A stretch of 64,000 nucleotides of DNA from an uncultured bacterium. Its GTDB lineage: Bacteria; Planctomycetota; UBA1135; GCA-002686595. Made by a program: the position numbers and the translations under genes. This document shows, piece by piece, positions 12,338-58,174 of the stretch (its first letter is position 1; the number at the start of each line of letters is the position of its first letter). The notes beneath the pieces were generated by a model that was given only the letters and a program-made list of their open reading frames with translations, was not told the origin of the DNA and made no database searches. The DNA is taken from contig CALSNU010000002.1 in the NCBI GenBank assembly GCA_943787795.1, forward strand, positions 704,001-768,000, written 5' to 3'.

Positions 12338-13020
12338 ATTCGATCGCGCGATGGCACTCGCTGCGAGAACTGACTCTCAAGTCTCTCCACGGGTCCGCCC
12401 CCCCCGACCACACATCGGGAGCGTGGCGCGCATGCGGCCTCCAGAGGCCGAACTCAACTGGTGTGAAGGCGGAGTTTCTTGGGCCCTGGCGCGGGCCAAC
12501 TCACTCTTCCCAGGCAACCGGCGTCAACGATCTGGCACCGCGCGCTTTGTATGAACGGTCAGAGAAGTTGTCTCATGTGATGGCCAGGCTCGGCCGAGGG
12601 CAGTCTTGGGGTCGGCCACGAGCGCGGAGCGTCCTCCGCTGGGCTCGTCGCCAGCATCATTTGACCCGCGCTGCGAGCGACAAGCGTGGATCTGGCCTCC
12701 GGTGCGGCCCTCCGCCCCCTTTTTCTAACCTTCGCTTTCTGGTCAGGAGCCCTTGGTTCGCACAGGCACGCGTTGGGGAAGGGCGACGCCCGATCCGTCT
12801 GCGACAGCCCGCCCACGAACTGTGGCGGGCTGGCCCATCGGCTATGCGGCCCGTGATGAGAGCCTGCCGACGCTGTCAAGAAACGGCTGAGGGGGACCGT
12901 CGTCGCTGGAGCTGCTGCTCGCCATGTCTCCCAGCTCAGTTGATCACCGCCCAATCGGGCGGTCTCCTGCTCTTGCTGATGGGCGGCGCAGCCTGGTCGG
13001 GCAGAAGGCGAGGCCAAACC

Positions 13021-13977
13021 TCAGGAGAACAACTCGTTTGTGAAGGCGAAGTAGTCATCCCCCAGGGCGTCGTGGAACTCAGAATACTCTCTCTCCAGGT
13101 CCAAAGAGGTTCCAGGATCAAACCTCGAGATCGCCACGGCTCTCAAGGTCTCGTCACCGGAGTGTTCCAGGGCTTGCCTCCAGAAGTACGACCCGCGATA
13201 ACTATAGGTGTCACTGGTGACATGGGGTTTAGCCACGCTTCCGATGTGGTAGACCGAAGCGGGGTCACCCCGCCCATCTTGGTGACGGGCAACGAACTCA
13301 AAGTGCAAACCGTCCCGTACGCCCAGCAAGAAGATGAGCTTGAGCGTGTCGATATAGTCCTTATGTGGCTCGAACATATTGCTCTCATTTACGCCCATCT
13401 CCGCTAGGGCAGCCTTGGCCTGATCATTGATCTTGTCCCAGCGATACAGCCTTGAGTCGACCTTGTACTTTCGCATGATTCGCTTCATGTTGTTGATCTG
13501 AAAGTAGATGAGGAAGGTCTCTGGGGTAACGATCCCAAGGGAGTCGTTACGGAACATGAAGGTGGCCGCTGCTAGCTGATTTTCCTCTGGAGAAGACATT
13601 TGATGTATCAGTGATCCATCCATGACGAAACAGTCGTAGTCCATGATTCCGAAGTCCAATCGCCAGACCCTCAGTAGCGTATTTAGAACCTGGTGGTGGT
13701 GCAGGGGGACCTGACTGATGAGGAGTGGGTAATCAGGCAGATTCTCACGGATCCACTCGTTCTCTTCATCGCTGAGTCCGTTGGAGACGAGGACGACTCG
13801 GCACTCGCGCTCGATCTTCTTCATCGCCAATTCAGCGATATGGAGGCTCGCTGGCATGAGCACGACGAAGTAGGTCCTCTCGACCTGTGTCAGGGCAGAC
13901 AGTTGCCTCTTCAAGGACCACCGCGCGGGCAAGCGCCGGATCGCGCGGCTGATGAGTTCGAGTCTTCGTGAGGGCAT
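13021..13977 (-). CDS. Hypothetical protein, possibly GT-A fold glycosyltransferase
   Basis: Long lower-GC ORF with VVLVSNG, FGIMDYDCFV (DxD) and VYHIG; start uncertain (13977 or 14010). Confidence 0.55.
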   Translation of the reverse strand: MPSRRLELISRAIRRLPARWSLKRQLSALTQVERTYFVVLMPASLHIAELAMKKIERECRVVLVSNGLSDEENEWIRENLPDYPLLISQVPLHHHQVLNTLLRVWRLDFGIMDYDCFVMDGSLIHQMSSPEENQLAAATFMFRNDSLGIVTPETFLIYFQINNMKRIMRKYKVDSRLYRWDKINDQAKAALAEMGVNESNMFEPHKDYIDTLKLIFLLGVRDGLHFEFVARHQDGRGDPASVYHIGSVAKPHVTSDTYSYRGSYFWRQALEHSGDETLRAVAISRFDPGTSLDLEREYSEFHDALGDDYFAFTNELFS

Positions 13978-41563: not shown

Positions 41564-41907
41564 GGGCGGCAGCGTAGCTGGGTCGGGCGGCTGGGATCGA
41601 GGGACTGGAGGGTTCCCCCCCTGAAGTCGCCTTCGCCTGGGAGGCTGCAGGGGACGCGAGCTGGGCAGGGTGGCAGAAGGCGAGACGATCTGACGCTCTC
41701 CGATCACGGGCCGCTCTGCTTGGCATGCCTTCCCTGCGACCGATGGGGGGCCCTGCGACCGATGGAGGGGCATCCGGCGACACAGGTTGAGACGGAGGCC
41801 AAGGGGACGCTGCAAGCCAAGGGGGATTCCCCTCGTGGTGGGTTCGGCCCCACCCCGAATCTGGCCGCCAAGGGCACACTGGAGCCGTGCTCCACGTCTC
41901 CACCACC

Positions 41908-43573
41908 ATGAAGTCCTCCCTTGTCGCCCTCGCCTCGGCCCTTCTCCTCCACGGGACCAGCGGCGCGCAGGTCCAGTTCGAGGACATCACCGACGCGGCC
42001 GGCCTCGCGGTGCCCCAAGGGGCAGGTCTCCAAATCGGCTTCGGTGCCGGGCTGGAGCAGCTGCAGATGACGGGTGGAGCCGCCGCAGGTGACTTCAACG
42101 GGGATGGCTGGGTGGACCTCTTCGTCACGATGCTCGATCGGCACGACGTGCTGTTCGCGAACCTCGGCGTGGACGCCAACGGCGAGCATCGCGGGTTCCG
42201 AGACGTGACGGCCCGGTGCTTCCCGGCCCCCGGGCCCGGCCCGCGCAGCAACGGCGCGGTCTTCGGGGACATCGACAATGACGGGGACGAGGATCTCTAC
42301 CTCACCTCCGTCGGCACCACGCGCTACCAGCTGTGGATCAACGATGGTGAGGGACACTTCCGCGAGCGGGCGCGCCAGCGCGGCGCCGCCGTGGAGACCA
42401 CGCGCTTTCACTCGGGCCAGAGCCCGGTGTTCGCCGACTTCGACCGGGACGGGTGGCTCGACCTGTACGTGACCGAGTGGGTCCTCATGCACCCCGCCTT
42501 CCCCGTCGCGCCGCACACGCGCCTCCTGCGCAACCTTGGCGCCGCGGCCCCGGGCCACTTCGAGGACGTCACCGCCGCGGCCGGGCTCGACCTCGGGATG
42601 GAGACGGGCTCTAGCGCCCTCGGGAACCCCACCGGCGCGTTCCAGTTCACGCCCCGCTTCTCTGACCTGGACGGGGACGGCTGGCCAGACCTGGCCATCG
42701 CAGGCGACTTTCTGACGAGCCACCTCTTCTGGAACAACGGCGACGGGACCTTCACGGAGGGGACCGCAGCGGCCGGGGTCGGGTGGCGACCAGAACGGCA
42801 TGGGCGCGACCATCGCGGACTACAACGGCGACGGGCTCCTGGACTGGTTCGTGACCTCGATCTACGACCGGGTGAACGATTGCACCCAGGGCGGCTGCGG
42901 GTGGGGTTCAACGGGGAACCGGCTCTACCTGAACACGGGCGCGCGCACGTTCGTGGACTGGACCGATCAGGCGGGGGTCCGAGATGGCGGATGGGGCTGG
43001 GGCGCCACGAGCCTGGACTACGACAACGACGGGGACGTGGACCTGACGATGACCAACGGCATCGACTGGGAGGCCCTCTCCAACGACGACCACTTCATCG
43101 ACGACCCCATGCGCCTGTGGCGGAACGAGCACGGGATCTTCACCGACGTCGCCCAGTCCGTGGGCCTGACCGCGACGGCCAAGGGCAAGGGCTACCTGAC
43201 CCTGGACTTCGACCGCGACGGCGACCAGGACCTCTACGTGGTCCACCACGGCGAGCTCCCCGTCCTCTACGAGAACGTGGGGGGCAACCAGAACGACTGG
43301 CTCCAGCTCGACCTGGTGGGCAGCGCCTCCAACCGTGACGCCGTGGGCGCCTTCGTGATCCTTCGTGCCGCGCCGGGTGCGCCCCAGCAGGTCCGCGAGA
43401 CCAGCCGCGGCAGCAACTTCCTCTCCTCGGATGAGGACCTCGTGCACTTCGGCCTCGGCCCGCCCACCTCCATGGGCACCGTCGTCCGCATCGAGATCCG
43501 CTGGCCCAGCGGTCAGACCACCGTGCTCACGGACGTGCCGCGGAATCAGCGGCTGACCGTCGTGGAGCCCTGA
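41908..43573 (+). CDS. CRTAC1-like FG-GAP/ASPIC-UnbV protein; +1 frameshift at 42781-42783
   Basis: Multiple GDFNGDGWVDL-type repeats; [13 protein letters not shown]...VHFGLG..IRWPSG; removing one G restores AGVGGDQNGMG. Confidence 0.88.
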
Positions 43574-43823
43574 GGGGGCGGGCCCGGGAAGGGGCAGCGC
43601 GGGGTGATGTGGATCGAGCCGGCGCCCTTCACCTGGGGCTCGGTGCCCGGGTGGAGCGGCCGGGGCGGGGTCGAAGGCGGAGCGTTCAGGTCGGGGAGGG
43701 CCTGCCCCTCGGCCGGGCGGGGTGGGCCCCCTGCGGGCGGGGCTCACGGCGCGAGCGGTGCCCAGGGGCCCCAGAGGGCGCTGACCTGGCGTGATCCGGG
43801 GGGAGGGGGCTAGGGTGGAGGGG

Positions 43824-45077
43824 ATGTTGGCACTCTCGGTCCTCGCGGCGCTCCTCCAAGCGCCATTGTCCGCGCCTCCCAACGTGGTGATCGTCCTGAT
43901 GGACGACATCGGTCGGGACAAGGTGGGCGCGTATGGGGATCACGCGGACGCGCCGCCGACGCCGCACCTCGACGCCCTCGCCGCACGAGGCGTGCTCTTT
44001 CGGAACGCCTGGGCCTATCCCGTATGCAGCCCGACGCGGGCCGCGCTGCTCACCGGGCGTCACTCGGACCGCACCGGGATCGGCACCATCATCGGGATCG
44101 CCGATGGCGTGCTGACGCCGCTCCCCTTCTCGGAGACGATCCTGCCCGAGGCCCTCCCCGACCACACGTCGGTCACCCTCGGCAAGTGGCACCTGCGCGA
44201 TGTCGGGGACAGCCTCACCCACCCGATCCAGTCTGGCTTCGACGCCGCGGCGGGCTACGTGGGATCGCCGACCTACTTCCACTGGACGACCCACGTCAAC
44301 GGCGTGCGCCGCAACGAGTCGGGCTACTTCCCCTCTGCCCTCGCGCGACGCGGCACGGAGGTGCTGGAGAGGCTCGATGAGCCGTTCTTTCTGTACCACT
44401 GCCCGATCCTCGCCCACTCGCCCTGGCACCTCCCGCCGAGCTACCTGCACACCCAGGAGCCCTCGACCTTCCCGCCCATCCTGCACAAGGCCATGGTGGA
44501 GGCCTTCGATCACCACCTCGGCCTCCTCCTCGCGTCGATCGACCTCGAGACCACCTACGTCTTCGTGGTCGGTGACAACGGATCCCCGAACGTCACGGTG
44601 AGTCCTCCGTGGCCTCCGAGCCACGGCAAGCGAACCCCCTATGAGGGCGGCGTCCGCGTGCCCTTCATCGTCGCCGGTCCCCGAGTGGCCCGCGGCGCCG
44701 AGTGCGATGAACTGATCCATGTCACCGACGTCTTCGCCACCGTCATGGACCTCGTGGGCCGCCCCGCTCCGCCGACCGGCGCGGAGGACTCCACCAGCTT
44801 CGCCCCGCTCCTGATCGACCCTGCCGCTGACGGAGCCCGGGACCACCTCTACTTCCATCAGTTCCCCTTCCCGGGCGCCACGTCCCAGGTCCCCGAGCTG
44901 CGCGCCGTCCGCACCAAGCGCTGGAAGCTGATCGAGCGCCCCGATGTCCCCGCCGAGGAGCTCTACGACCTCCAGGCCGATCCCCACGAGCTGGACAACC
45001 TGCTCCTCTCCAACCCGGGCCCGACGACCGACGCGCTCCGGGACCGCCTCCTCGCGCTCATGCCGCAGTTCCCCTGA
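43824..45077 (+). CDS. Cys-type sulfatase
   Basis: PNVVIVLMDDIG, CSPTRAALLTGR, GKWHL, GDNG, YEGGVRVP, ELYDL..DP.E..NL. Confidence 0.93.
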   Translation: MLALSVLAALLQAPLSAPPNVVIVLMDDIGRDKVGAYGDHADAPPTPHLDALAARGVLFRNAWAYPVCSPTRAALLTGRHSDRTGIGTIIGIADGVLTPLPFSETILPEALPDHTSVTLGKWHLRDVGDSLTHPIQSGFDAAAGYVGSPTYFHWTTHVNGVRRNESGYFPSALARRGTEVLERLDEPFFLYHCPILAHSPWHLPPSYLHTQEPSTFPPILHKAMVEAFDHHLGLLLASIDLETTYVFVVGDNGSPNVTVSPPWPPSHGKRTPYEGGVRVPFIVAGPRVARGAECDELIHVTDVFATVMDLVGRPAPPTGAEDSTSFAPLLIDPAADGARDHLYFHQFPFPGATSQVPELRAVRTKRWKLIERPDVPAEELYDLQADPHELDNLLLSNPGPTTDALRDRLLALMPQFP

Positions 45078-45805
45078 CGCGCCGGCAGGTCGGCGCGATG
45101 AACCCGCGCTGAACCCACGCGCGGCATGCGGACTCCGACACCCGGACACGACCATCGCTGGCCCCCCCCGCCCAGAGTCTTGTTTGCCATCGGTGACGGT
45201 GGGCTGACATTGTCCGCGTCTCGGGCCCCGCGAGAATGAGGGTCCCCCACAGCGGTCGCCCCTCACGGGGCGAGAGGCTTGCCCCTCGGGCGGCTCGGGC
45301 GCACCGCAGGGGGGCCGAGAGTAGACCCGGCGGCCTCACTGCCACCTCGGAGGTGGCGCCGGCGCGGTTCTGGTGTCGTGCGCTGGTGATCGGTGGCCGG
45401 GACGGGGGCAGCGGCGTCCCATGGCCCTGGCCCGGCGTCACCCGGGGGATGCAAGCGCTGTTCGGGGGCGCAACTGCCCTCTTTCGTCTGGCCCTTCACC
45501 TGCCGTGGGGTGGGGTGGAAGGCCCCGTCGCGGGCAATCTCAGGATGAGACGGCGGGTCTATGGGACATTCAGGTGAACTTAAGTCCTTTTGTACCGGAG
45601 GTTAACGGGCATATATAAGCATATGTACTTATCCCTGGAAGATAAACCCGCATGGGGATGTGGCGAACTCGCGTCCGTTCGGCAGACTCGGTAACGTCCT
45701 CGACCGCGAGGCCCACACTTCGACCGCGAAGACCTCGATCGAAGTCGCATCGCCCTCGCGCTCTCCCCACCCTCCCAACCCTGCCTCACACAAGCCCCCA
45801 ACGAT

Positions 45806-46174
45806 ATGAAACTCTTCTCTCTCCCCACTGCCCTAGTCACTGCCGGACTCGCCTCGATCGCCCTCGCCGCCGCGCCGGTCGGTACCCCGGTCGAAGCGAC
45901 CACGCTCGACGTCACCGGCGCCTCGATGTTCCACGGTCAGCAGGTCCTGTTTGACGCGAACAACGCGAGCTTTGGCAGCCAGATGTACTACGGCGGCAAC
46001 GTCGTCCAGTACGGCGGCAGCCACATGATGTTCTTCAAGGACCCTGTGACCAACGTTGACACGCGCATTTGGCTTAGGGCTGAGGATTGCGCCCTTAGAG
46101 TCCACATGACCAACTTCAGTACCTGCGGCGATATCCAGTACCTGCGACCTGGTACCAACGGGTTCCAGCAGTGA
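45806..46174 (+). CDS. Small secreted hypothetical protein
   Basis: Signal peptide MKLFSLPTALVTAGLASIALA; C-ending codon bias; AT-rich upstream region. Confidence 0.7.
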   Translation: MKLFSLPTALVTAGLASIALAAAPVGTPVEATTLDVTGASMFHGQQVLFDANNASFGSQMYYGGNVVQYGGSHMMFFKDPVTNVDTRIWLRAEDCALRVHMTNFSTCGDIQYLRPGTNGFQQ

Positions 46175-46977
46175 GCCGATCTGCTCAGGGGGATCCCGTT
46201 CAGTAATCTGAACGGCAGGTCTCTGTGCAGCCCCGCGGGGCCCACTCCTCGAAAGGGAGTGGGCCCCGCGATCATTGGTTGAGGTCGCGGTCGGTGCCCT
46301 CGGCGGCGCCCGCCGAGGCCAGGGTGGAAGGGTTGGATGGCTCAGGTCATCTGAGCCGGCGTTCGGATTGCTCCGAGCCGGTCTCTGGTTGGTCCAAGAG
46401 CGCTGTTGGGTCTCGACGGACCACGCCTTGGGATCGTGGGGGGGGAGGACCATGCCACGGGCCCTGCAGAACATGGCCAACTGGATGCCGGCGCGCTAGC
46501 AGAGCCCTGGTGGCCTCTCACTCGCCGTCCGAAATGGCTGGGGGAAGCGGCTCGTGGTCCGTTGCCCTGAAGGCTGACCGGCGTCTTGGCCGGCATTGGA
46601 ACCACCCCCCAGCCGCGACCGATGGCCCGCCTCCACTCAGGCTGCGCATCGCTCGTTGTCAGGCGAGAGATCTAGATTCTCCCAAAGACCTCGCCCGTGA
46701 GGTGCCGATGGCCCTTACGGACAAAGCCGAGCAAGCGGCTCTTGTCTTCGGTTCCTAGCGCTCAGCGATGCCGCTGCCCGTAGAGCGTCTGAAGCTCGAG
46801 GCCCGGCAACGGCCTCCGGAGAAGTCGAGACGTCGGTCCATTTCTCAGCCCGATCCGTCCCATCAATCAACTCTCGAGGATGCCTCTGGATTCAGCGCGC
46901 GCTAGGCTGAAATCACGGTTGTCCTTGCCTCCATCTCGCTCCTGCGCAGCTAGGAGCCTCCTCCGCTTTCGAGATTG

Positions 46978-48825
46978 ATGTACCGTTCTCTTCGCGATCT
47001 GCTCTCTATGGTCCCACCGAGGACTCGCTGGATGACCCTGTGGGTCGCCCTTCTGGGCATCCTCGCGGCCGGGTCTGAGCTCTTGCTCCTGCTCGGGCTC
47101 GAGGGCTTTATCGGCGCTCTCAACGGGAGCGCTTCCAGGACGGAGGGGATAGCTGGCCGCTTGGTTGGCACTCTGGAAGACACCTTCGGTTCGGGGATTC
47201 CCGCCATGGGGGCTCTTCTCGTCTTCGCAGCCATCGTCACGAACGCTCTGCGGATCGGGGCGCTCTGGGTCTCGATGAGTGTCTCCAACAGGATTGGCGC
47301 CGAGTTGTCCGCGGGGCTCTTTGGGCGGATCATCCGAAAACCGTACCTCTACTTCGCCGGGGTGCCCTCGGCGGAGATTCTCGCTGCTTCCAATAAGGTC
47401 GCCGGGCTTTCGAACGGCGTCCTGCTCCCGATCTGCAACCTCGCCACGGCGTTCTTCAGTATCGCCCTACTCGGGGCAGCGATCTTCAGCGCGTCCTGGG
47501 AGTTCGCGCTGGTGGCGCTGCTCACCGTGGGGGTCGCGTACGTCCTCGTTGGACTACGGGCTCGTAGGAGTGTCGAACGTAATTCGAGGCTCATCGCGAG
47601 GATTCTGACCGAGAAGAACAGCCTTGTGATCGAGTCTATTGGTGGCATTCGCGACGTGATCCTTGGCAACCGACAGGAACTGATGGTCTCCGGGTTCCTC
47701 TCGCTAGACCTTCGCCAGCGGATACGCATCGTGCGGAATCAACTTTGGGTCAACCTACCGCGGTTCGTCCTTGAGGCCCTTGCGATCATCTCCATCGTCG
47801 CCGCTGCATTCTTGTCCCTTCGAGAAGGGTCCTCGGGTGCCTTGACTCTGGAGGCGCTGGCGTTCCTTGGCGTCGCAGCGTTGAGGCTCTTACCGAACGT
47901 GCAGCGCTTCTACCAGTCTTGGGGACAGATCGTGTCCCAGACGGGCAACGTCGAGGACTCGATCGCGGTCCTCCGCTCGAATTCAGGGCTGGATGGAGTC
48001 GAGCAGCCGGACAACCTGAATCCAGAGAGGGCGCTGGAGGTGTTTGACTGCATGCGTTTGGCCGATGTCGCCTTCCGCTATCCGAGTGCTAGCGCGGAGG
48101 TCTTCAGCGGAGTCAATCTGGCCATCGAGCGCGGGGCGTGCGTGGGCATCTTAGGCCCGACGGGAGGAGGGAAGAGTACGCTCGTTGACCTTCTCCTCGG
48201 CCTCATTCAACCGACGAGCGGAGAGGTTCTGCTCGGCGATGAACCGTTGGGGGGTGACCTCCGGTTTGACTGGCGAGCCTGCCTGGCTCATGTTCCCCAG
48301 AGTATCTTCCTCGTGGATGGGTCCTTCACGGAGAACATCGCGCTGGGCCAGCCGGCCCGCGAGGTCGACCTCGAGCGGGTGAAGGAGGCGGCGAGGATGG
48401 CCTGCGCGATCGACTTCATCAATGCGACCCCCGACGGCTTTGACTCTCCCGTTGGAGAGCGTGGGAGCCAACTCTCGGGCGGAGAGAGGCAGCGGGTCGG
48501 CATCGCCCGCGCTCTCTACTCAGGTGCTCCGGTCCTGGTCCTCGACGAGGCAACCAGCGCGCTGGATGACGATACGGAGCGACGCTTGATGGCGAATATT
48601 CGGGAGAAGACGACCGACCTGACGCTCATCATGATCGCCCATCGCCTGAACACCCTGCAGAACTGCGACCAGCTGATTCGGGTGCACTCCGGCTCGGTCG
48701 AGGTACTCTCTAGCCTCGAAGATCTCGAACGCCAAGAGCTGGGAGAGGGCCAGGATATTGAAGTGAGCCTCACGCCCTCGGCAGTCCCGAGGCCGGACGG
48801 GCACCCGGGTGGAGGGGCAGAATGA
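46978..48825 (+). CDS. ABC exporter (TMD+NBD), PglK/HetA-like glycan-cluster type
   Basis: About 6 TM; GPTGGGKST, LSGGERQR, VLVLDEATSALD, IAHR; LPRFVLE and LRLLP motifs. Confidence 0.9.
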   Translation: MYRSLRDLLSMVPPRTRWMTLWVALLGILAAGSELLLLLGLEGFIGALNGSASRTEGIAGRLVGTLEDTFGSGIPAMGALLVFAAIVTNALRIGALWVSMSVSNRIGAELSAGLFGRIIRKPYLYFAGVPSAEILAASNKVAGLSNGVLLPICNLATAFFSIALLGAAIFSASWEFALVALLTVGVAYVLVGLRARRSVERNSRLIARILTEKNSLVIESIGGIRDVILGNRQELMVSGFLSLDLRQRIRIVRNQLWVNLPRFVLEALAIISIVAAAFLSLREGSSGALTLEALAFLGVAALRLLPNVQRFYQSWGQIVSQTGNVEDSIAVLRSNSGLDGVEQPDNLNPERALEVFDCMRLADVAFRYPSASAEVFSGVNLAIERGACVGILGPTGGGKSTLVDLLLGLIQPTSGEVLLGDEPLGGDLRFDWRACLAHVPQSIFLVDGSFTENIALGQPAREVDLERVKEAARMACAIDFINATPDGFDSPVGERGSQLSGGERQRVGIARALYSGAPVLVLDEATSALDDDTERRLMANIREKTTDLTLIMIAHRLNTLQNCDQLIRVHSGSVEVLSSLEDLERQELGEGQDIEVSLTPSAVPRPDGHPGGGAE

Positions 48826-49002
48826 TGTCGGCCAAGATTGATCACCTCAGCTCGCTGACCGAAGTCGGGACCCTGACGAGTCTGGGGCGCGAAATCACGA
48901 GCCCCCCGGCCATGACCCTACCATGCGGGCGATCGGGAGCGCCCCGCCGCGGTGGAGGACTCGCCCTGCGGGTTCTTCGGAGAGGGGGCTCCTTGAAGAG
49001 CC

Positions 49003-50481
49003 ATGCTTGATCCCCTCCACGCATTTCTTGAGGTCGCCTCCCGGCACGGAGAGATCCCAGCGATCGTCGAGCAGGGCCTGGTGACCACCTATGCGGATCT
49101 TGAGTTCCTCGCCCGCCGCTTCGCTGGGGAGTTCATACGCGAAGCCAGCGCTCATCCGAAGGTGGCCATCTGTCTGCCGCAGACCGCTGCTGCGTACGCC
49201 TCGATGTTCGGCGCCATGCTCGCCGGCGGGTTCTATGCGCCCGTCAACATCGGCGCGCCGCTCGATCGCCAAAGACAGATCCTCAGTCAATTCGATCCAG
49301 AGGTGATCGTCGCCGAAGAAGGAAGTGTCGGCGCCTACTCCAGCATCGCGGGCCGCGCGCGGGTCGTCACCTCGGACATCAGCGCTGAGCCGCTCTGTGA
49401 TCCAAGACCAGGACACGACCTCGTCTACGTCATCTTCACATCAGGGACGACCGGCAAGCCCAAGGGCGTCCGAATCCGTCGGGCCTCTCTTGGGCATTAT
49501 GCCTCTTGGGCGCGTCGAGCTATGCGGGTCCAGCCCGGTGAGCGGTGGTCTCAACATCCGAACATCGGCTTCGATCTCAGTGTCCTCGACATCTTTGGCG
49601 CATTGACCGCCGGCGCTTCCCTGTACCCGCTTCAGACGAAGATGGACCGTTTGCTCCCCGGTGCGTTCGCCGGGAAGAACCGGCTCGAGATATGGAACTC
49701 TGTCCCCAGCCTCATCGACCTCATGATTCGAGGACGATGCCTCACCACAGCCAACTTCAAGAGCGTTCGCCTGATGACATTCTGCGGTGAGCCGCTCCTG
49801 AAGAGGCACCTCGACGCAATCTTCGAGGCGGCGCCCCACGTGGTGGTGCACAACACCTACGGCCCCACCGAGGCCACGGTCTCCTGCACCCTCGAGGTCC
49901 TGGACCGTGAGTCCTACCGAGGGAAGTCGAAATCGAGCGTCGTGCTTGGACAGCCGATCGACGGAATGCACCTTCGAATCGGTGAAGAAGAGAGCGTGGG
50001 TGAGATCCTGATTGCCGGCCCGCAAGTAGCAGACGGGTACTGGGACAACCCAGAGGAGACGTCCGCGAGGTTCTTCGAGATGGAGTGCGGTGGAGAGATG
50101 CTCCCGGCCTATCGCTCGGGAGACTGGGCCGAGTTGATTGGCGAGGACATGTACTTCTCAAACAGGATCGACGATCAGGTCAAGATCCGCGGCAACCGTG
50201 TCGAGTTAGGGGAGATCGAGGCGACCATCAGCCACCTGTTCATGTGTGAGGCGTACGTCGTTGTCGTCGACGAAGAGCTTCATTGCGCTGTTACGCAGGA
50301 TTCCAAGCTCGACCTCATTGAGCTCCGCGCGAGACTCTCGGATGTCCTTCCTGAGTACGAGCTCCCTAGTTCCTTGAAGTCGCTCGATAGGATTCCGGTC
50401 AACGTCAACGGCAAGGTGGACCGTCGGCAACTGCGGGAGACGATCAGTGCGAAGCTGAAGGAGGACGCACGAGATGAGTGA
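49003..50481 (+). CDS. Stand-alone adenylation enzyme, DltA-like D-alanine--carrier protein ligase
   Basis: YVIFTSGTTGKPKGV, FDLSV, WNSVPS, FCGEPL, NTYGPTEATV, YRSGD, NGKVDR. Confidence 0.85.
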   Translation: MLDPLHAFLEVASRHGEIPAIVEQGLVTTYADLEFLARRFAGEFIREASAHPKVAICLPQTAAAYASMFGAMLAGGFYAPVNIGAPLDRQRQILSQFDPEVIVAEEGSVGAYSSIAGRARVVTSDISAEPLCDPRPGHDLVYVIFTSGTTGKPKGVRIRRASLGHYASWARRAMRVQPGERWSQHPNIGFDLSVLDIFGALTAGASLYPLQTKMDRLLPGAFAGKNRLEIWNSVPSLIDLMIRGRCLTTANFKSVRLMTFCGEPLLKRHLDAIFEAAPHVVVHNTYGPTEATVSCTLEVLDRESYRGKSKSSVVLGQPIDGMHLRIGEEESVGEILIAGPQVADGYWDNPEETSARFFEMECGGEMLPAYRSGDWAELIGEDMYFSNRIDDQVKIRGNRVELGEIEATISHLFMCEAYVVVVDEELHCAVTQDSKLDLIELRARLSDVLPEYELPSSLKSLDRIPVNVNGKVDRRQLRETISAKLKEDARDE

Positions 50482-50725
50482 TTCAGAGCGAGACCTTCTT
50501 GGTGTGGTCGTTGAGGTCATCGCGGAGCTTGTGCTTGATCGTGGAGCGTCGATCGACTCGTCCACCGTGCTGACCTCTGTGATGGACTCCTTCGGTCTGC
50601 TTGATGCAATTCTCATGATCGAGGAGCGTTCGGGAATGTCGGTGGATCTTGCGGAAATCCAGGTAGAGGGTGACCTCACGATCGGATTGCTGGTGCGAGA
50701 GGTCTTGCGGTTGAATGGTCGTTGA
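50474..50725 (+). CDS. Acyl/aminoacyl carrier protein (DltC-like)
   Basis: 83 aa, acidic, MDSFGLLDAILMIEE phosphopantetheine-site motif; overlaps upstream gene. Confidence 0.8.
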   Translation: MSDSERDLLGVVVEVIAELVLDRGASIDSSTVLTSVMDSFGLLDAILMIEERSGMSVDLAEIQVEGDLTIGLLVREVLRLNGR

Positions 50726-50728
50726 AGA

Positions 50729-51334
50729 ATGGGCGATTCCGAGAGCAGCGCCCTGATTGACATCGCCTCGATCCCTGCGGCGGATCGTGAAGGCGCGGCC
50801 GAGCTGATCATCGAGGCGTTACCCGGCTTCTACGGGCAGGAACGACTGAGGCCGGTGATGGTCTCGGCCGTGGCCAGGACCCTCGGCCTAGTTGGCACCG
50901 ACACGGCGACGGGTTTCGCCGCCGGGAGCGAGCAAGGTGTCAGGGGGGTGCTGACCTATACCAGTGCGGACAAGCTGGATCTGGCGAGGCTGGGGGGCGT
51001 CCAGCAGCTGTTGAGGGCCCTCGACCCGGACTCCCGGCGCCTCTTCAGAGAACACCTTCGGGACTATGACGCGGACTTCGCCGTGGCGCCCTCTGGTACC
51101 TGTTACCTGAGCCGTGTTGCGGTGCGGACCGAGGCCCGAGGCGGCGGCCTCGCCGAGCGCATGATGCGCCACTGGATGCAGGAGGTTGAGTCGGACCACG
51201 CTAACGGCTTCTCGCTTCACGTAGATCGGTCGAACGCCCGTGCCATTCGGTTCTACGAGCGCCTTGGGTTTGTGGATACCCTCGCGGAAGGCAAGTTCCT
51301 GCTTCTCACGCGGGAGAGGGGGGACTCTCGATGA
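50729..51334 (+). CDS. GNAT family acyltransferase
   Basis: YLSRVAVRTEARGGGLA, LHVDRSNARAIRFYERLGF. Confidence 0.88.
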   Translation: MGDSESSALIDIASIPAADREGAAELIIEALPGFYGQERLRPVMVSAVARTLGLVGTDTATGFAAGSEQGVRGVLTYTSADKLDLARLGGVQQLLRALDPDSRRLFREHLRDYDADFAVAPSGTCYLSRVAVRTEARGGGLAERMMRHWMQEVESDHANGFSLHVDRSNARAIRFYERLGFVDTLAEGKFLLLTRERGDSR

Positions 51335-51906
51335 CCACCGCAGCTGATCGAGCGCGAAGCGGCTATCGGCGGATCGAGTCGAGGGCCGACTTCCTCGAAT
51401 TCCTCCGGCTCGACCTGGGCGCCCGCGGCTTGACGGCGGTTCCCTGGCTCTGCTCCTTCAGGCGTCCTCTGGTGGCCTACACCGTGATGATGCGGAGGGT
51501 CGAGTACTTGCAGTCCAAGCGCCTCGGCTTCTTCGGGCGGTCTTGGCTAAAGTGGCGCCTCTGGAGGTTGAAGATGTACGGAGCGCGGCTCGGGCTCTCG
51601 ATGGTCCCGGGGACTTTTGGTCCCGGGCTCTTCATCGTCCACCATGGGAGCATCGTGATCAGTAGCGAGGCTCGGTTCGGTTCGCGGACGAGGATCCACT
51701 CGTGCGTGAATGTCTCCGGGGCGCCAGTATTCGGGGATGACGTCTACCTGGGCCCTGGTGCCGTCGTCGTGGGTGACGTTGACGTTGGCGACCGAGTTCG
51801 TGTCGGCGCGAACAGTGTCGTATCTCGACCGGTCAAGACTGGATCCACCGTGTTGGGTGTGCCTGCTCGGGTGATCAAGGTCGACTCGAACGCCGAGGAC
51901 GGCTAA
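51331..51906 (+). CDS. Hexapeptide-repeat O-acetyltransferase (CysE/WcaB-like)
   Basis: FGPGLFIVHHGSIVI, APVFGDDVYLGPGA, VGANSVV, VLGVPARVIK. Confidence 0.88.
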   Translation: MTTAADRARSGYRRIESRADFLEFLRLDLGARGLTAVPWLCSFRRPLVAYTVMMRRVEYLQSKRLGFFGRSWLKWRLWRLKMYGARLGLSMVPGTFGPGLFIVHHGSIVISSEARFGSRTRIHSCVNVSGAPVFGDDVYLGPGAVVVGDVDVGDRVRVGANSVVSRPVKTGSTVLGVPARVIKVDSNAEDG

Positions 51907-51919
51907 GGGAGCAGTACCC

Positions 51920-52990
51920 TTGGAATCTGCCGTCCTAGAGGTGAGCAGGGCTGCCATTGCCCATAACTACGACGCCATCTCCCGCGCTGTACCTGGGTCG
52001 GAGGTCATGGGGGTCGTGAAGGCCGATGGCTACGGGCACGGTGCCGTTGAGGTTGCGCGGGTGCTAAGCGAAGCGGGCGCGAGGACAGTCGGTGTGGCGT
52101 CGTGCGACGAGGCAGTCGAGCTGCGTCAGCACTTAGGCTTCCCGCTGGAGCGCCTGCAGGTCGTCGTGTTGGGCGGCGTCGCGGACCCCGAAGAGGCCGC
52201 GGCGTGTGAGATCTGGGGACTGACTCCGGTCATCCATGATCTGGAGCAGTTTTGTTGGCTCGAGACGGCTGGTTTCACCGGGCGATTCTGGGCCAAGATT
52301 GACACGGGCATGAGTCGGCTGGGCCTTCGCGATCTGAATGCCTTTCGGCAGTGCGTTACCGATGCTCGCAGGTTGCCTGAGTATCTGATGAGCCACCTGG
52401 CATGTGCCGATGACCGGGACCACCCGCTGAACACAGAGCAATGGTCGCGATTCGTAGGCGAGTTGGAGCGTTGGCCGGAGGGCGTCAGCGGCTCGCTCTT
52501 GAACAGCGCAGGCGTGGCGAACTTCTCCGACTGGGGACTCGGGGTCGTTCGACCTGGCATCGGCATCTACGGTGGGAGTGGGGAGCTCAACGAGACGCTC
52601 GGCCTTCGGCGAGCTTCCGTGCTACGGGCGAGGGTCAAGCAGGTGAGGTTGGTCCGAGCAGGCCGCACCGTCTCGTATGGCGCTACCCATCAGTTCCTCA
52701 GAGATTCGAGGATTGCAGTCCTTGGCATCGGGTACGCAGACGGAATGCCCTGGCACCTCTCCGGAGTAGGGCGGGTCTCCTTCGGCGGAGAGCTGTGCCC
52801 GATCGTCGGCCGAGTGTGCATGGACTACACGATGGTGGACGTCTCGGGGACCGAGGTGGAGCCGGGCGACATGGTCGAGGTCTGGGGAGGGATCGACGGC
52901 CTCGATGAGGTTGCCGAGATGGCAGGGACCATCGGTTACGAGCTGCTCACGCGGCTCGGCTCCAGGGTGCGGCGCGTGTACGTGGACTGA
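51920..52990 (+). CDS. alr: Alanine racemase
   Basis: VVKADGYGHG (PLP Lys), KIDTGMSRLG, SHLACAD, VRPGIGIYG, VSYG, GYADG, GRVCMD, GTIGYELLT. Confidence 0.95.
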   Translation: MESAVLEVSRAAIAHNYDAISRAVPGSEVMGVVKADGYGHGAVEVARVLSEAGARTVGVASCDEAVELRQHLGFPLERLQVVVLGGVADPEEAAACEIWGLTPVIHDLEQFCWLETAGFTGRFWAKIDTGMSRLGLRDLNAFRQCVTDARRLPEYLMSHLACADDRDHPLNTEQWSRFVGELERWPEGVSGSLLNSAGVANFSDWGLGVVRPGIGIYGGSGELNETLGLRRASVLRARVKQVRLVRAGRTVSYGATHQFLRDSRIAVLGIGYADGMPWHLSGVGRVSFGGELCPIVGRVCMDYTMVDVSGTEVEPGDMVEVWGGIDGLDEVAEMAGTIGYELLTRLGSRVRRVYVD

Positions 52991-53106
52991 GCGGAGAATG
53001 CCGTCTAGGTGGCCCCCACCCGATGACGGGCTCTGGCCTCGATGCCCTGAGCCGGGGCTCGGGCGCTGGTCGTGGAGTGAACCGGTCTCTGGTGGGTCGG
53101 AGCGTC

Positions 53107-53386
53107 TCAGTGAAAGTCCCTCGACCCCGCGCTGATGCCGGCGGCGAGGTCGTCGAGGCTCTCGGAGCGGTCGACGATCAGGTGGACCACCCCGCCTGAG
53201 CGGTCGATGCGGCCGTGGACGAGGAGGAGGACGCCGTCGCGGGCGGTGGCGCTCTTAGGTGTTGGGGTGGACGACGAGGTTGGAGGTGCCGGTCTCGTCC
53301 TCGAGGGTGATGAAGATGATCCCCTGGGCGGTGGCGGGGCGCTGGCGGACGAGGACCATGCCGGCGACGGCGACGCGGGCGTCCTG
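53107..53386 (-). pseudogene. Duplicated 3' fragment of dnaE2
   Basis: Near-identical to 58175-58462, with substitutions, an 8-nt deletion and a TAC>TAA change. Confidence 0.9.
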
Positions 53387-53788
53387 GACGGCGGATGGGG
53401 CTGGGGCGCGACGAGACTCGACGACGACAACGACGGGGACCAGGACCTCTACGTGGTCCACCAAGGCGAGCTCCCCGTCCTCTACGAGAACGTGGGCGGG
53501 AACCAGAACGACTGGGTCCAGCTGGACCTGGTGGGCAGCGCCTCCAACCGCGACGCCGTGGGCGCCTTCGTGCGCCTCACCGCCGCGCCGGGGGCGCCCG
53601 AGCAGGTGCGCGAGACCAGCCGCGGCAGCAACTACCTCTCCTCGGACGAGGACCTGGTGCACTTCGGTCTCGGCCCGCCCACCTCCATGGGCACCGTCGT
53701 CCGCATCGAGATCCGCTGGCCCAGCGGCCAGACCACCGTGCTCACGGATGTGCCGCGCAACCAGCGCCACACCATCATCGAGCCCTGA
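53387..53788 (+). pseudogene. Duplicated 3' fragment of the ASPIC-UnbV gene
   Basis: Near-identical to ~42984-43573 but missing the segment between two DxDxDGD repeats. Confidence 0.9.
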
Positions 53789-53904
53789 AGTCGGCGGGAC
53801 CGGGGTAAGGCGCCCTGGAACTTCCATTTGCCGCGTAACTTCCGCGGCGCCGCGCGGTTCGACGCCGAGGACCCGCTCGCACCGGCTGCACCCTTCCCAC
53901 GCCC

Positions 53905-56900
53905 ATGCTCCAACTCTCCGTCGCCTGCCTGCTCGCCCCGTTCGCCGCCGCGCCCCAGTCGGACTTTGTGCAATGGGAGACCCCGCACGTCTCGCCCATC
54001 GCCCTCGATGCTGCCGGGCAGCGGCTCCTGGTCTGCAACACCCCGGACGCCCGCCTCGAGGTCCTCGACCTCTCCAGCGGGCTGCCCGTCCCGTCGCTCG
54101 CGATCCCCGTGGGCCTGGACCCGGTGACCGTGCGGCTGCGCGGCGGGGACGAGGCCTGGGTGGTGAACTCGATCTCCGACTCCATCAGCGTGGTGGACCT
54201 CGCGTCGGGGTCCGTGGTCCGCACGATCCGGACCGCGGACGAGCCGGCGGACGTGGTGTTCGCGGGCAGCCCCGTGCGGGCCTTCGTCTCCTGCTCCCAG
54301 CCGAACCTGGTGCAGGTCTTCGACCCGGACGCGCCCGGCGCGCCCCCTCGCGGAAATCCCGCTGCGCGCGGAGGAGCCCCGCGCCATGGCCGTGAGCCCC
54401 GACGGCTCCACGGTCCACGTGGCCATCTTCGAGTCGGGCAACGGCTCCACGACCCTCGCCGGCGGCGCGGACCCGAACAACGGGACGCCCGAGATCCCCA
54501 ACGTGGTCTCCGATCCTGCGGGGCCCTACGGGGGGCAGAACCCGCCGCCCAACGACGGCACGTCCTTCTCTCCGGCCTTGCGCCCGGGCAACCCGGCGCC
54601 GCCGGCGGTCGGGCTGATTGTCAAGCAGGACGCCCAGGGGCGCTGGATGGACGACAACGGCGGGAACTGGACCGACCTCGTCAGCGGCCCTGACGCGGCG
54701 CGCTCCGGCCGTCCCGTGGGCTGGCGTCTCGCCGACCGTGACGTGGCGAACATCGACGCCCAGTCCCTGGCGGTCACCTACAGCGGCGGGCTCATGAACA
54801 TCAACATGGCCCTCGCGGTGCACCCGGTGAGCGAGTCGGTGACCGTCGTCGGGACAGACGGGACGAACGAGGTCCGCTTCGAGCCGAACCTCGACGGGGT
54901 CTTCCTGCGGGTGCGCCTCGCGGCGGTTCCCACTTCGGGCTCGACGACGCTGGTGGACCTCAACCCGCACCTGGACTACTCCACCAGCAGCGTCCCCCAG
55001 GCGGAGCGGGACCTCGCCGTCGGGGACCCCCGCGGCATCGCCTGGCGCGCCGACGGCGGGCGGGCGTACATCACCGGGATGGGCTCGAACAACGTCGTGG
55101 CGGTCGACGCCACGGGAGCGCGCGTGGGCGCGCCCATGGAGGTGGGGGAGGGGCCGACGGGCATCGTCCTCGACGCCGCCGGTCAGCGGGCGTTCGTGGT
55201 CAACAAGTTCGACGCGAGCGTCTCGGTGCTCGACCTAGTCCAGGGCCAAGAGACCGCGCGGGTCCCGTTCCACGATCCCTCGCCCGAGGCGATCAAGGTC
55301 GGCCGGCGCCACCTCTACGACACCCACGCCACCTCCGGGCTCGGCCACGTCTCGTGCGCGTCGTGCCACGTGGACTCGCGCACCGACCGCCTCGCCTGGG
55401 ACCTGGGCGACCCCACCCTGCCCATGGACCCCGACAACGGGCTGAACCTCGGCATGGGGATCCCCGGGCTCAACGTCGGCTTCGAGGACTTCCACCCCAT
55501 GAAGGGGCCGATGACCACGCAGACCCTGCAGGACATCATCGGCAAGGAGCCCCTGCACTGGCGCGGGGACAAGGACAGCCTGCACGACTTCGCCCTGGCC
55601 TTCGTGCTCCTCCAGGGGGACGACGCGCCGCCGACCCCGACGGACATCGACGAGTTCGAGGCCTTCCTCGCCACGGTGGCGTTCCCCCCGAACCCATTCC
55701 GCGGCCCCGACAACAGCCTGCCCACGGACCTCCCGCTCCCCGAGCACTTCAGCCCCGGCCGCTTCTCTCCGGCCGGGACGCCCCTGCCGAACGGGGACGC
55801 CCAGGCCGCCCTCGGGCTCTACCTGCCGCCGACGCTCCTGGATGCGGGGGCCTTGGCCTGCGTCACCTGCCACACGCTGCCCACGGGCCTCGGCCCCGAC
55901 ATGCGGCTGCAGGGCTTCACCTACGTCCCGTTCCCGGAGGGCCCCGAGGGGGAGGCGCACCACGGCCTCGTCTCCGCGGACGGCTCCACGAACGTGAACA
56001 TGAAGATCTCGCAGCTGCGGAACATGCACGAGAAGGTGGGGCTCGACTTCACGCAGCCGGAGGCCCTCTCGGGCTTCGGGTTCCTGCACGACGGCAGCAT
56101 CCCCTCCATCGCCGCCTTCCTCGCCTCCGACACCTTCGACTTCCAGAACGACCAGCAGCTGGCGGACATGGTCGCGCTGATGATGGCCTTCGCCGGGTCG
56201 GACCTGCCGAACGGGTCGGTGAACACCGTCCTGTTCCCTCCGGGCACCGAGAGCCTCGACACCCACGCCGGGGTCGGGATCCAGCTGACCCTCGAGGACG
56301 TCACCAGCGCCTCCCAGGAAGACCTCGACCTCCTGTCGTTGCTGGCCGATGAAGCCGAGCTGGGTCGGATCGGCCTCGTGGCCCACGGTCTCCTGGGCGG
56401 CGTCCGAAGGGGGGCGGCCTACCTGCCGGGCGGCACTGTCCAGACCGACCGCGCCTCCGAGACGATGACGACCGCGGACCTCCTCGCGCTCGCCACCCCC
56501 GCCGCGCCGCTCACCTTCACCGCGGTGCCCGCCGGCACCCAGCGGCGCATCGGCGTGGACCGGGACGCTGACGGCTTCCTGGACCAGGACGAGCGCGACG
56601 CGGGCAGCGATCCCGCGAACCCGAACAGCGTCCCGTCCATCGGCTCGGGCTACTGCGGCCCCGCTGCGCCGAACGCCTCGGGCGCCCCGGGCCGCATCGC
56701 CGCCGTCGGCAGCCCCGTGGCCGCCGACAACGACCTGCGCCTCTCGGCCACGTCGCTGCCGGCCCAGAGCGCGGGCTATTTCGTCGGCTCCATGACCCAG
56801 GCCTTCGTCCCGAACCCCGGCGGCAGCGTGGGCAACCTGTGCATCGCCGGCGACGTCGCTCGGTTCGCGGCCCAGCTCCGCACCACGGGGACCACGGGCT

Positions 56901-57058
56901 CGTTCTCCATCGAGGTCGACCTCACCGCCATTCCCACCAATCCCAACCAGCCCGTCCTCGCCGGTCAGACCTGGAACTTCCAGGCCTGGTTCCGCGACTC
57001 CGCCGGCGGCCAGGCCACCTCGAACTTCACCGACGGGATCTCGATCCCGTTCCAGTGA
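53905..57058 (+). CDS. Secreted YncE-like beta-propeller plus di-heme cytochrome c protein with conserved C-terminal domain; +1 frameshift in C-run 54343-54347
   Basis: [27 protein letters not shown] repeats; SCASCH, LHWRGD, ACVTCH; C-terminus [25 protein letters not shown]; removing one C restores [17 protein letters not shown]. Confidence 0.85.
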
Positions 57059-57265
57059 GCCCCCGTGGGAGGCGCTCGGCCGCGGCGGGTGGCCGGACGC
57101 CCTTGGCCCCTGTGGTGACGATCCCGACCACCGGAAGGGTCCCTGGGACGCCCAAGGGGGCGCCTGCGTCATCGAGCCCGGCCGTGTTCGGCGGGCGTCG
57201 AATCCAGCGGCGCCGCGCCGCGATTCGCTGAACGAGGAGCGCGGGCAGGCCCCGCGACCCGTTCC

Positions 57266-58147
57266 ATGCCGAGGTTGCACGAGAGGATCTTCGAGGCGCT
57301 GCGCGCCCGATGGGAGTCGCCGAGGACCCGCCGCGCCATCAGCTGGGCCCTGACGGGGTCGTTCTTCGTGTCGATCGTCTGCATCGAGCTCGCCCGGCAG
57401 GGGTGGATGCCAACCGCCCTCGGCCAGCCTCTCCCGACCAACCACCTGGCGGCGATCTCCTGGGTCTTCACCCTGCTGCTGATCGTGGAGGTGCTGGACC
57501 TGATCTTCTCCCTGGCGGAGTCCATCGCGAACGCCCTGGGCAAGCAGCTGGAGATCTTCTCCCTGATCCTGGTCCGCAAGACCTTCGACGAGCTCGCGCG
57601 CCTGCCCGAGCCCATCGATATCGGCGGCGCCACCGAGGTCCTGCTCGAGATGGGCGCCCTCGCGGTCAGCGCCTTGATCGTCTTCGTCGCGCTGACCCTC
57701 TACTACCGTCTCCAGCGCCACCGCCCCATCTCCACGGACGCGGCCGACGTGGCCCACTTCGTCTCCCTGAAGAAGGCCGTCTGCCTCGGACTCCTCCTGG
57801 CCTTCGTGGTCACCGGCGCCCTCTTCGGCCTCAGCTCCCTCACCGTCGACGCCCCCGACCAGGCCCTGTCCCTGGACTTCTTCGTCGTCTTCTTCACCGT
57901 CCTGGTCTTCTCGGACGTCCTCCTGGTCCTCGCCTCCCTCACCGTCACCCGCGCGTACCGCGTCGTCTTCCGCAACTTCACCTTCGCGGTCGTCACGGTC
58001 TTCCTCCGTATCGCCCTCGTCGCTGACCCCTACCCCAAGTCGATTCTCGGCGCCGCCACCGCCCTCTTCGCCCTCGCCGCCGCCTGGGCCTTCGACTTCA
58101 GCCGGCCGGATCCAGCCCAGTCCGAAGACGAGCGGCGGTCGGGGTAG
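57266..58147 (+). CDS. Multi-pass membrane protein of unknown function
   Basis: About 7-8 TM; KQLEIFSLILVRKTF, FFTVLVFSDVL, VFRN. Confidence 0.8.
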   Translation: MPRLHERIFEALRARWESPRTRRAISWALTGSFFVSIVCIELARQGWMPTALGQPLPTNHLAAISWVFTLLLIVEVLDLIFSLAESIANALGKQLEIFSLILVRKTFDELARLPEPIDIGGATEVLLEMGALAVSALIVFVALTLYYRLQRHRPISTDAADVAHFVSLKKAVCLGLLLAFVVTGALFGLSSLTVDAPDQALSLDFFVVFFTVLVFSDVLLVLASLTVTRAYRVVFRNFTFAVVTVFLRIALVADPYPKSILGAATALFALAAAWAFDFSRPDPAQSEDERRSG

Positions 58148-58174
58148 CTGCAGCTGGACGGAGCCCCTGCGCGC

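What the first reader, a model, noticed from the sequence alone, without database searches (positions are those of the whole stretch)
46978..52990. Self-contained D-alanylation-like system without DltB/DltD: ABC exporter, DltA-like ligase, carrier protein, GNAT, O-acetyltransferase and dedicated Alr
Seen: five genes are overlapping or within 13 nt of each other, downstream of a glycan-type ABC exporter, in DNA of lower GC than the flanks. The A-domain has FDLSV and FCGE; the Cys of FCGE is the residue linked to D-Ala preference in Bacillus DltA. The co-encoded racemase independently points to D-Ala. Known: Gram-positive Dlt uses the MBOAT DltB and DltD, and Vibrio AlmEFG uses a lipid A acyltransferase; neither type is here. 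Inference: the GNAT (or the hexapeptide transferase) moves D-alanyl from the carrier to an amino-sugar or lipid-linked glycan in the cytoplasm before export, or N-acetylates the carrier-bound D-Ala. This would be a new route to D-alanylated surface glycan in a diderm.
Basis: partly seen in the sequence, partly recalled or inferred. Interest (0 to 1): 0.8.

Follow-up and report, generated by a model that had tools for sequence, protein, structure and literature searches.

The report
Dlt-like glycan aminoacylation island with racemase
A marine planctomycete carries an acquired 8-kb island that probably activates D-alanine on a carrier protein, caps it with acetate and attaches it to a surface sugar polymer using only soluble enzymes, a variant of a widespread but apparently uncharacterised route that lacks the membrane transferase of the classical Gram-positive system.

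Summary
The six genes are real, intact and on an 8-kb low-GC island that one strain contig skips. The ligase and carrier resemble DltA/DltC, but the ligase fails DltA cut-offs and belongs to a separate family. Of 31 close loci, 17 carry an AAC(3)-like acyltransferase, 1 an MBOAT and 0 an alr; most annotated ones lie in glycan clusters. This island lacks AAC(3). Its ligase-carrier-GNAT-LbH order recurs in a distant contig (L052). The alr is foreign (AU p=0.014) and missing from 17 of 17 congeners, so it is not the lineage's housekeeping gene, but its linkage was seen only in close relatives. The GNAT keeps acetyl-CoA motifs, and formyl- and methyltransferases fill the same gene slot elsewhere, so N-capping is likelier than transfer. 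Best model: D-Ala is loaded on the carrier, N-acetylated, then moved to a sugar by the LbH protein. D-Ala versus glycine, the transferase and the acceptor are inferred, not shown. D-alanylated glycans in diderms are already known; this enzymatic route was not found in 10 literature searches.

The parts
45079..53104 (.). Low-GC island of about 8.0 kb, variably present among strains
   Evidence: GC 0.634 vs 0.71-0.72; a contig of run X5 joins 45078 to 53105, skipping 8026 nt, depth 10.4, while island depth is 1.3-5.3
45806..46174 (+). 122-aa ORF with a signal-peptide-like start, no family; inside the island, role unknown
   Evidence: cluster of 7 members
46975..48825 (+). MsbA/HepA/PglK-like ABC exporter (membrane domain plus ATPase); candidate flippase, substrate not shown
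   Evidence: PF00664 + PF00005; NCBIfam all under cut-off; 28-31% homologs head three related clusters
49003..50481 (+). Stand-alone amino acid adenylation enzyme, DltA/AlmE-related, pocket code DLLNTCTVSK
   Evidence: PF00501 only; TIGR01734 243 bits vs cut-off 560; same code in 82 of 120 listed homologs
50474..50725 (+). DltC-like carrier protein, phosphopantetheine serine in DSFG (Ser39)
   Evidence: no Pfam hit alone; DSFG invariant in 6 of 6 aligned; profile's best PDB match is B. subtilis DltC, E 1.2e-10
50729..51334 (+). GNAT of a ligase-coupled subfamily; probable N-acetyltransferase of the carrier-bound amino acid
   Evidence: PF00583; 116 clusters at E<=1e-30; motif conservation; fold; always beside the ligase where context was seen
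51331..51906 (+). CysE/EpsC-like hexapeptide (LbH) acyltransferase with the CysE-type His104; candidate carrier-to-sugar transferase
   Evidence: PF00132; EpsC 68 bits vs 150; His invariant in 4 of 4 and aligned to serine acetyltransferase His
51920..52990 (+). Alanine racemase, only copy in the genome, of foreign origin
   Evidence: TIGR00492 264.5 bits vs cut-off 168; 1 of 18 genus genomes; trees and AU test
53106..53400 (-). 3' fragment of dnaE2, 90% identical to 58174-58478; right-border scar
   Evidence: blastn; Pfam of the intact gene
53417..53804 (+). 3' fragment of an ASPIC/UnbV gene, 90% identical to 43202-43588; right-border scar

Best explanation
A horizontally acquired module that adds N-acetyl-D-alanyl to a surface glycan. 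(1) Alr makes D-Ala: family shown, purpose inferred. (2) The resident PPTase primes Ser39 of the carrier: inferred. (3) The ligase adenylates D-Ala and loads the carrier: chemistry follows from the DltA/AlmE families; D-Ala about 65%, glycine the main alternative. (4) The GNAT acetylates the alpha-amino group with acetyl-CoA: inferred from motifs and gene-slot swaps, about 55%. (5) The LbH protein, sitting where most relatives have an AAC(3)-like transferase, moves the capped alanyl onto a hydroxyl or amine of a nucleotide-sugar or lipid-linked glycan in the cytoplasm: inferred, about 40%. (6) The ABC exporter flips the decorated lipid-linked glycan, whose sugars are made by genes outside the island: inferred. 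That it is a carrier-based small-amino-acid decoration module for a glycan is about 85% likely; the confidence below is for the whole chain.
For: Carrier profile matches DltC best. The pocket shares 5 of 9 readable positions with B. cereus DltA, 3 of 9 with AlmE (read), and keeps the Cys that excludes L-Ala in DltA (passage of PMC8972799). Alr is found in 1 of 18 genus genomes although all 18 have Mur ligases; it groups outside the order's own alr clade (p-AU 0.0136) and is consecutive with LbH and GNAT in a second planctomycete record (MDB2576153-155). In the 17 AAC(3) loci the gene after or fused to the carrier is this GNAT in 4, a formyltransferase in 2, a methyltransferase in 5 scanned plus near-duplicate L048, other in 5; L035 and L037 share gene order and swap GNAT for formyltransferase. 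The GNAT family keeps R137 77%, G138 81%, G140 92%, N169 98%, Y176 92% over 150 sequences, the acetyl-CoA motifs as recalled. LbH orthologs (2 of 31 loci) never occur with AAC(3); L052 has GT4-ligase-carrier-GNAT-LbH.
Against: No alr in 31 of 31 close loci (9 are under 8 kb; L052 ends just after LbH), and 4 of 5 of those genomes tested hold alr elsewhere. AlmE also has FDLSV and the Cys. The LbH-for-AAC(3) swap rests on three lineages, found through the ligase, and CysE-like LbH proteins are common plain O-acetyltransferases. L057, L058 and Mesorhizobium plasmids have ligase, carrier and GNAT with neither AAC(3) nor LbH, which fits the GNAT being a transferase. No glycosyltransferase or amino-sugar gene lies in the island. 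Expression was not shown.
Confidence: 0.42

Rival explanations
1. One reading: the GNAT is the carrier-to-amino-sugar D-alanyl transferase, and the LbH protein is an ordinary acetyl-CoA O- or N-acetyltransferase.
For: This GNAT subfamily was beside the ligase wherever context was seen: 2 of 401 alphaproteobacterial genomes (one was in the query alignment), 4 plasmid records, 7 of 31 loci. Ligase-carrier-GNAT stands without AAC(3) or LbH in L057, L058 and Mesorhizobium capsule clusters. GNAT-fold enzymes that use acyl carriers exist (recalled: LuxI, FeeM).
Against: In 4 of its 7 loci the GNAT coexists with AAC(3); 24 of 31 loci lack it; its slot is also filled by formyl- and methyltransferases; CoA-binding motifs are kept. 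The triad-only loci have other pocket codes, and L057 and Mesorhizobium share an unknown 280-aa domain that could be the transferase.
Confidence: 0.25
2. The amino acid is glycine (or another small residue) and alr is a hitchhiker, captured from the donor chromosome or kept because it supplements cell-wall D-Ala.
For: Best local PDB match of the pocket region is AlmE, E 2.4e-18, a glycyl-AMP ligase. The DltA Met at pocket position 239 is Leu here. No alr beside 31 close homologs. The alr's nearest named homologs are zetaproteobacterial, the ligase's mostly alphaproteobacterial. Glycine and N-acetylglycine occur on E. coli O antigens.
Against: More pocket positions match DltA than AlmE; alr follows LbH by 13 nt with a purine-rich leader and stays intact and adjacent in a second record at 89% identity; hosts of other loci already own an alr and need no extra copy.
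Confidence: 0.17
3. An orphan remnant of a larger polysaccharide cluster, without its true transferase or acceptor, not working as a unit here.
For: No glycosyltransferase in the island, while L052 has GT4 directly upstream of the ligase; no AAC(3) in the genome; broken gene fragments at the right border; about 800 nt without a clear gene before the ABC gene.
Against: All six frames are intact; variants at 73-90% identity keep full length; the island occurs in runs of several studies; a GT cluster lies 33 kb upstream on the same contig.
Confidence: 0.11
4. A split Dlt-like system: a resident MBOAT carries the aminoacyl group across the membrane.
For: Three MBOATs in the genome; one close locus (L053) has an MBOAT in its cluster.
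Against: The two scored reach 127 and 143 bits against DltB's 375 cut-off; MBOATs occur in 18 of 18 genus genomes, so they are background; 1 of 31 close loci against 44 of 66 distant DltA-like loci has one; no DltD.
Confidence: 0.05

Closest known systems
DltA/DltC of the Dlt(X)ABCD pathway (Gram-positives; also Dickeya and Pectobacterium, passage of PMC5541007)
   Same: Stand-alone adenylation enzyme with the stereo-gate Cys; carrier with DSFG whose profile matches DltC best
   Different: Under DltA cut-offs; other pocket code; no DltB, DltD or DltX beside it; soluble GNAT and LbH partners; no teichoic-acid context
AlmE-AlmF-AlmG of Vibrio cholerae (glycylation of lipid A; AlmE per PMC10510592 table, rest recalled)
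   Same: Ligase plus carrier feeding a cytoplasm-side transferase in a diderm; best local pocket match
   Different: No lipid A acyltransferase-type gene in the island; 3 of 9 pocket positions shared; racemase present
Uncharacterised AAC(3)-like / ligase / carrier modules in nonulosonate and Maf clusters (found here)
   Same: Same ligase family (41-49% identity) and mostly the same pocket code; same GNAT subfamily and DSFG carrier in some
   Different: This island has LbH and alr, no AAC(3), DUF4910, NeuB or Maf
Amino-acylated O antigens and capsules: E. coli O123 and O161 (Lea3 alanyltransferase), O121, O114; A. baumannii alt (passages of PMC7685785, PMC9676051); C. difficile type B flagellin (FemAB-like, ATP-grasp; PMC5207246)
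   Same: Product class: amino acids, often N-acetylated, on diderm surface glycans
   Different: Passages seen name no adenylation enzyme or carrier; homology to those transferases was not tested

Membership tests
Dlt pathway | DltA equivalog score | tested here: not met
   TIGR01734 242.9 vs 559.85; PRK04813 250.3 vs 476
Dlt pathway | Stereo-gate Cys in the pocket | tested here: met
   Cys261, invariant in 120 of 120; shared with AlmE, so not diagnostic
Dlt pathway | DltC-type carrier | tested here: met
   Profile of 6 carriers: best PDB hit DltC, E 1.2e-10, DSFG aligned; a peptidyl carrier is second
Dlt pathway | Linked DltB MBOAT | tested here: not met
   None in island; 2 of 3 resident MBOATs scored, 127 and 143 vs 375
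Dlt pathway | DltD | tested here: not met
   PF04914 0 of 1 genome, 84.9% complete
Dlt pathway | D-Ala preference | not testable with these tools
   needs an adenylation assay
AlmEFG | Linked lipid A acyltransferase-type AlmG | tested here: not met
   No such family among island genes; rest of genome not searched
AlmEFG | AlmE pocket | tested here: inconclusive
   3 of 9 positions shared, yet best local score
AAC(3)-type ligase module | AAC(3)-like gene beside the ligase | tested here: not met
   PF02522 not found in the genome
AAC(3)-type ligase module | Same ligase family and pocket code | tested here: met
Alanine racemase | TIGR00492 cut-off, both Pfam domains | tested here: met
   264.5 vs 168; VanT models under cut-off
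Lineage housekeeping alr | Groups with the order's alr; present in congeners | tested here: not met
   0 of 17 congeners; p-AU 0.0136; long stem branch noted
CysE / EpsC O-acetyltransferase | Equivalog cut-off | tested here: not met
   cysE 47.6 vs 210.65; EpsC 67.6 vs 150; His aligned
PglK / HepA glycan exporter | Equivalog cut-off | tested here: not met
   PglK 199.9 vs 1000; HepA 219.3 vs 725; MsbA 245 vs 602
Modular NRPS | Condensation or thioesterase domain | tested here: not met
   PF00501 only; none among island genes

The most novel reading that the evidence does not exclude
A widespread third branch of Dlt/Alm-type chemistry, fully cytoplasmic and modular: one ligase family loads D-Ala on a DltC-like carrier; a swappable capping enzyme (GNAT, formyltransferase, methyltransferase) edits the amino group on the carrier; a swappable transferase delivers it to a sugar. 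The usual transferase would be an AAC(3)-family protein using an aminoacyl carrier instead of acetyl-CoA, a native role for relatives of aminoglycoside resistance enzymes; here it would be a CysE-like LbH protein, an aminoacyl-carrier-dependent hexapeptide enzyme. The island brings its own racemase into a genus that lacks alr.
Probability: 0.33. Interest if true: 0.75.

Novelty: new variant of a known kind. Interest (0 to 1): 0.52.

Why it matters
Amino acids on O antigens, capsules and flagellin sugars are known from structures, but how they are activated is mostly unassigned in the papers seen. This small soluble set makes the question testable in vitro with four proteins. It also warns that these ligases, often labelled D-alanine--poly(phosphoribitol) ligase, are not DltA, and suggests a biosynthetic role for AAC(3)-like genes in glycan clusters. 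For the host it is a strain-variable surface decoration that could change charge or phage recognition (inference).

Tried and rejected
Assembly artefact: rejected (X3 contigs). Housekeeping alr: rejected. Cognate MBOAT or DltD: not found. Island in other genomes of the order: DNA search of 301 genomes found only the own copy and a 288-nt ABC match; ligase search of 41 found only 28-36% paralogs. Expression: both RNA runs are contigs that cover island, flanks and intergenic DNA alike, so no claim. Promoter, terminator and repeat scans gave nothing above chance and no convincing att repeat. LbH model was poor (pLDDT 59) and was not used. Complex prediction of LbH trimer with carrier was not available. 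LbH profile over 381 genomes found only a member of its own alignment; no plasmid match for LbH or an AAC(3)-like query. My recall that C. difficile type B glycosylation uses an NRPS-like enzyme was not borne out. A papain-like identity for the unknown L057 domain was not supported. A genome-wide GC3 baseline was spoiled by false ORFs and replaced by flanking genes. Ten literature searches listed no paper on this module; the AlmE primary paper is not held; the library lacks most subscription journals, and no supplements were read.
Full report
OBSERVATION. The window is C2:704001-768000 of a 4.7-Mb, 84.9%-complete genome. Gene content and a named relative record point to Planctomycetota; runs that hold the stretch are marine. 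The six genes lie as described: ABC exporter, then after 177 nt ligase, carrier, GNAT, LbH protein and alr with an 8-nt overlap, 3-nt gap, 4-nt overlap and 13-nt gap. GC over 45079-53104 is 0.634 against 0.714 and 0.718. I laid 4 of 24 listed runs. Run X3 covers 44538-48417, 48541-50747 and 51058-53155 with few differences. In run X5 one contig joins 45078 to 53105 (depth 10.4, 55 letters on the short side) and island depth is 1.3-5.3 against about 9-21 beside it. The join was called at 90% likeness and its right side is a 90% copy of the dnaE2 end, so the exact right border is uncertain, but a strain-variable island is the simplest reading.

LIGASE AND CARRIER. The ligase has only PF00501 and scores 243 bits against DltA's cut-off of 560. 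It belongs to a family of at least 672 proteins at E<=1e-60; the 119 best others are 43-50% identical. Its pocket code (GrsA numbering recalled) is DLLNTCTVSK in 82 of 120, with Cys invariant. Read from the alignments, nine positions share 5 with B. cereus DltA, 4 with PltF and 3 with AlmE; AlmE is the top local hit, has FDLSV and the Cys, and was solved with glycyl-AMP (PMC10510592, two passages). The Cys excludes L-Ala in DltA (PMC8972799, four passages). So the pocket says D-Ala or Gly, leaning D-Ala. The carrier has no Pfam hit, but a six-sequence profile matches DltC best with DSFG aligned. One Sfp/HetI-like PPTase is in the genome.

HOMOLOGOUS LOCI. I examined 101 loci. 31 score at least 450 bits with the family profile, 66 under 330 (mostly DltA-like codes), and 4 in between were left out of counts (L050, L063, L065, L067; three have AAC(3)). 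Of the 31: AAC(3)-like PF02522 17, this GNAT 7, LbH ortholog 2, MBOAT 1, alr 0. Of the 66: MBOAT 44, AAC(3) 0, alr 0. Caveats: L047 and L048 are near-duplicates, 9 of the 31 are under 8 kb, and partner profiles were partly built from these loci, though Pfam confirmed AAC(3) in the 9 ORFs scanned. AAC(3) loci often carry NeuB, cytidylyltransferase, DUF4910 or Maf genes. Thus the family is not Dlt: its usual partner is a soluble acyltransferase in glycan clusters. This genome has no AAC(3), DUF4910 or Maf. L052 (41% GC) has pyruvyltransferase, methyltransferase, GT4, then ligase 48%, carrier, GNAT 39%, LbH 55%, and ends there. L038 has GT2, ligase, carrier, two LbH genes. Four Mesorhizobium plasmids carry the ligase; the two opened show ligase-carrier-GNAT inside a capsule-type cluster with no AAC(3), LbH, MBOAT or alr within 9 kb.

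GNAT. It defines a subfamily of 116 clusters at E<=1e-30, found beside the ligase whenever context was visible. The model (pLDDT 90) is closest to uncharacterised acetyltransferases 4M85 (Z 18.3) and 1U6M (17.2); puromycin N-acetyltransferase (14.1) is among many ties and shows no function. The R-G-x-G loop and N-x-x-A-x-x-F-Y motif are conserved; their role in acetyl-CoA binding is recalled. In the 17 AAC(3) loci the gene after or fused to the carrier is this GNAT in 4, a formyltransferase in 2, a methyltransferase in 5 scanned plus L048, and something else in 5. Acetyl, formyl and methyl donors in one slot suggest capping of the amino group. Against this, L057, L058 and Mesorhizobium have the triad alone; their pocket codes differ, and two share an unknown domain.

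LbH. It is under CysE and EpsC cut-offs but keeps the His that aligns with serine acetyltransferase. Orthologs were seen only beside the ligase and carrier, never with AAC(3), in three lineages. LpxA and LpxD show that this fold can use acyl carriers (recalled). This is the weakest step: the sample is small and similar proteins are common acetyltransferases.

ALR. It is the only protein with both Alr domains in the genome. None of 17 congeners has PF00842 (70-90% complete), though 18 of 18 have Mur ligases and 15 of 18 a Ddl-like match. It groups with zetaproteobacterial-type sequences (96/94) outside the order's clade (100/99), on a long stem; forcing it into that clade is rejected (p-AU 0.0136; group named after the first tree was seen). 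A second planctomycete record has GNAT, LbH and alr with consecutive accessions at 84-90% identity. So alr came with the island, but the linkage is not general, and capture from a donor chromosome remains possible.

ACCEPTOR. The island has no glycosyltransferase. A low-GC cluster with GT2, GT4, a Wzy_C-domain protein and sulfotransferases lies about 33 kb upstream; two DegT aminotransferases and a PseB/NeuB set lie elsewhere. Which one supplies the acceptor is unknown. The ABC exporter's class is unresolved; 28-31% homologs head three related clusters, but a resident exporter is as similar.

KNOWN AND NEW. Diderm dlt operons exist (PMC5541007, passages), and D-Ala, Gly and N-acetylated amino acids occur on E. 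coli and Acinetobacter glycans with proposed transferases (PMC7685785, PMC9676051, passages). C. difficile type B uses FemAB-like and ATP-grasp genes (PMC5207246, one passage); PMC13317340 held none of my terms. Ten searches listed no paper on a ligase-carrier module with AAC(3), GNAT or LbH; coverage is partial and supplements were not read. Two earlier AI notes describe similar modules in other genomes; they are leads only. Verdict: works like DltA/DltC and AlmE/AlmF in its first half, is a member of neither, and is a new variant of carrier-mediated glycan aminoacylation. Interest 0.52.

Noticed in passing
genus genomes G001-G017: All 17 congeners have Mur ligases and 14 a Ddl-like match, yet none has an alanine racemase C-terminal domain; their D-Ala source is unexplained.
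   Followed up: partly
L035, L036, L037, L039, L040, L042, L047, L053 and others: AAC(3)-family genes directly upstream of the ligase in nonulosonate and Maf clusters, under resistance-gene cut-offs in the 2 scored; probable aminoacyl-carrier transferases.
   Followed up: partly
L189, L190 (Mesorhizobium plasmids) 9001-11394: Ligase-carrier-GNAT triad in a capsule-type cluster of culturable rhizobia; a tractable test system.
   Followed up: partly
L057:6175-6999 and L189:11534-12376: Shared 280-aa domain without Pfam or PDB match beside the triad; possible further transferase.
   Followed up: partly
window 53106-53804: Fragments of dnaE2 and of an ASPIC/UnbV gene, each 90% identical to copies nearby, fused at the island's right border.
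   Followed up: partly
window 1-13400 and L153: Low-GC polysaccharide cluster: UDP-sugar dehydrogenase, GT4 and GT2 genes, deacetylase-like gene, methyltransferase, sulfotransferases, Wzy_C domain.
   Followed up: partly
L145 (G030:C22:7249-8310): A second planctomycete of the order has an alr that also groups with the zetaproteobacterial-type clade, beside a GT9 heptosyltransferase gene.
   Followed up: partly
window 41887-43573: FG-GAP/ASPIC gene appears split over two frames near 42780-42800; some contigs show a 1-nt deletion there.
   Followed up: no
window 57164-58107: 293-aa membrane protein gene with an 86%-identical second copy on contig C3.
   Followed up: no
window 56640-57090: The C-terminal stretch of the 890-aa MauG-like protein matches many other places in the genome at 65-85%; possibly a shared sorting domain.
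   Followed up: no
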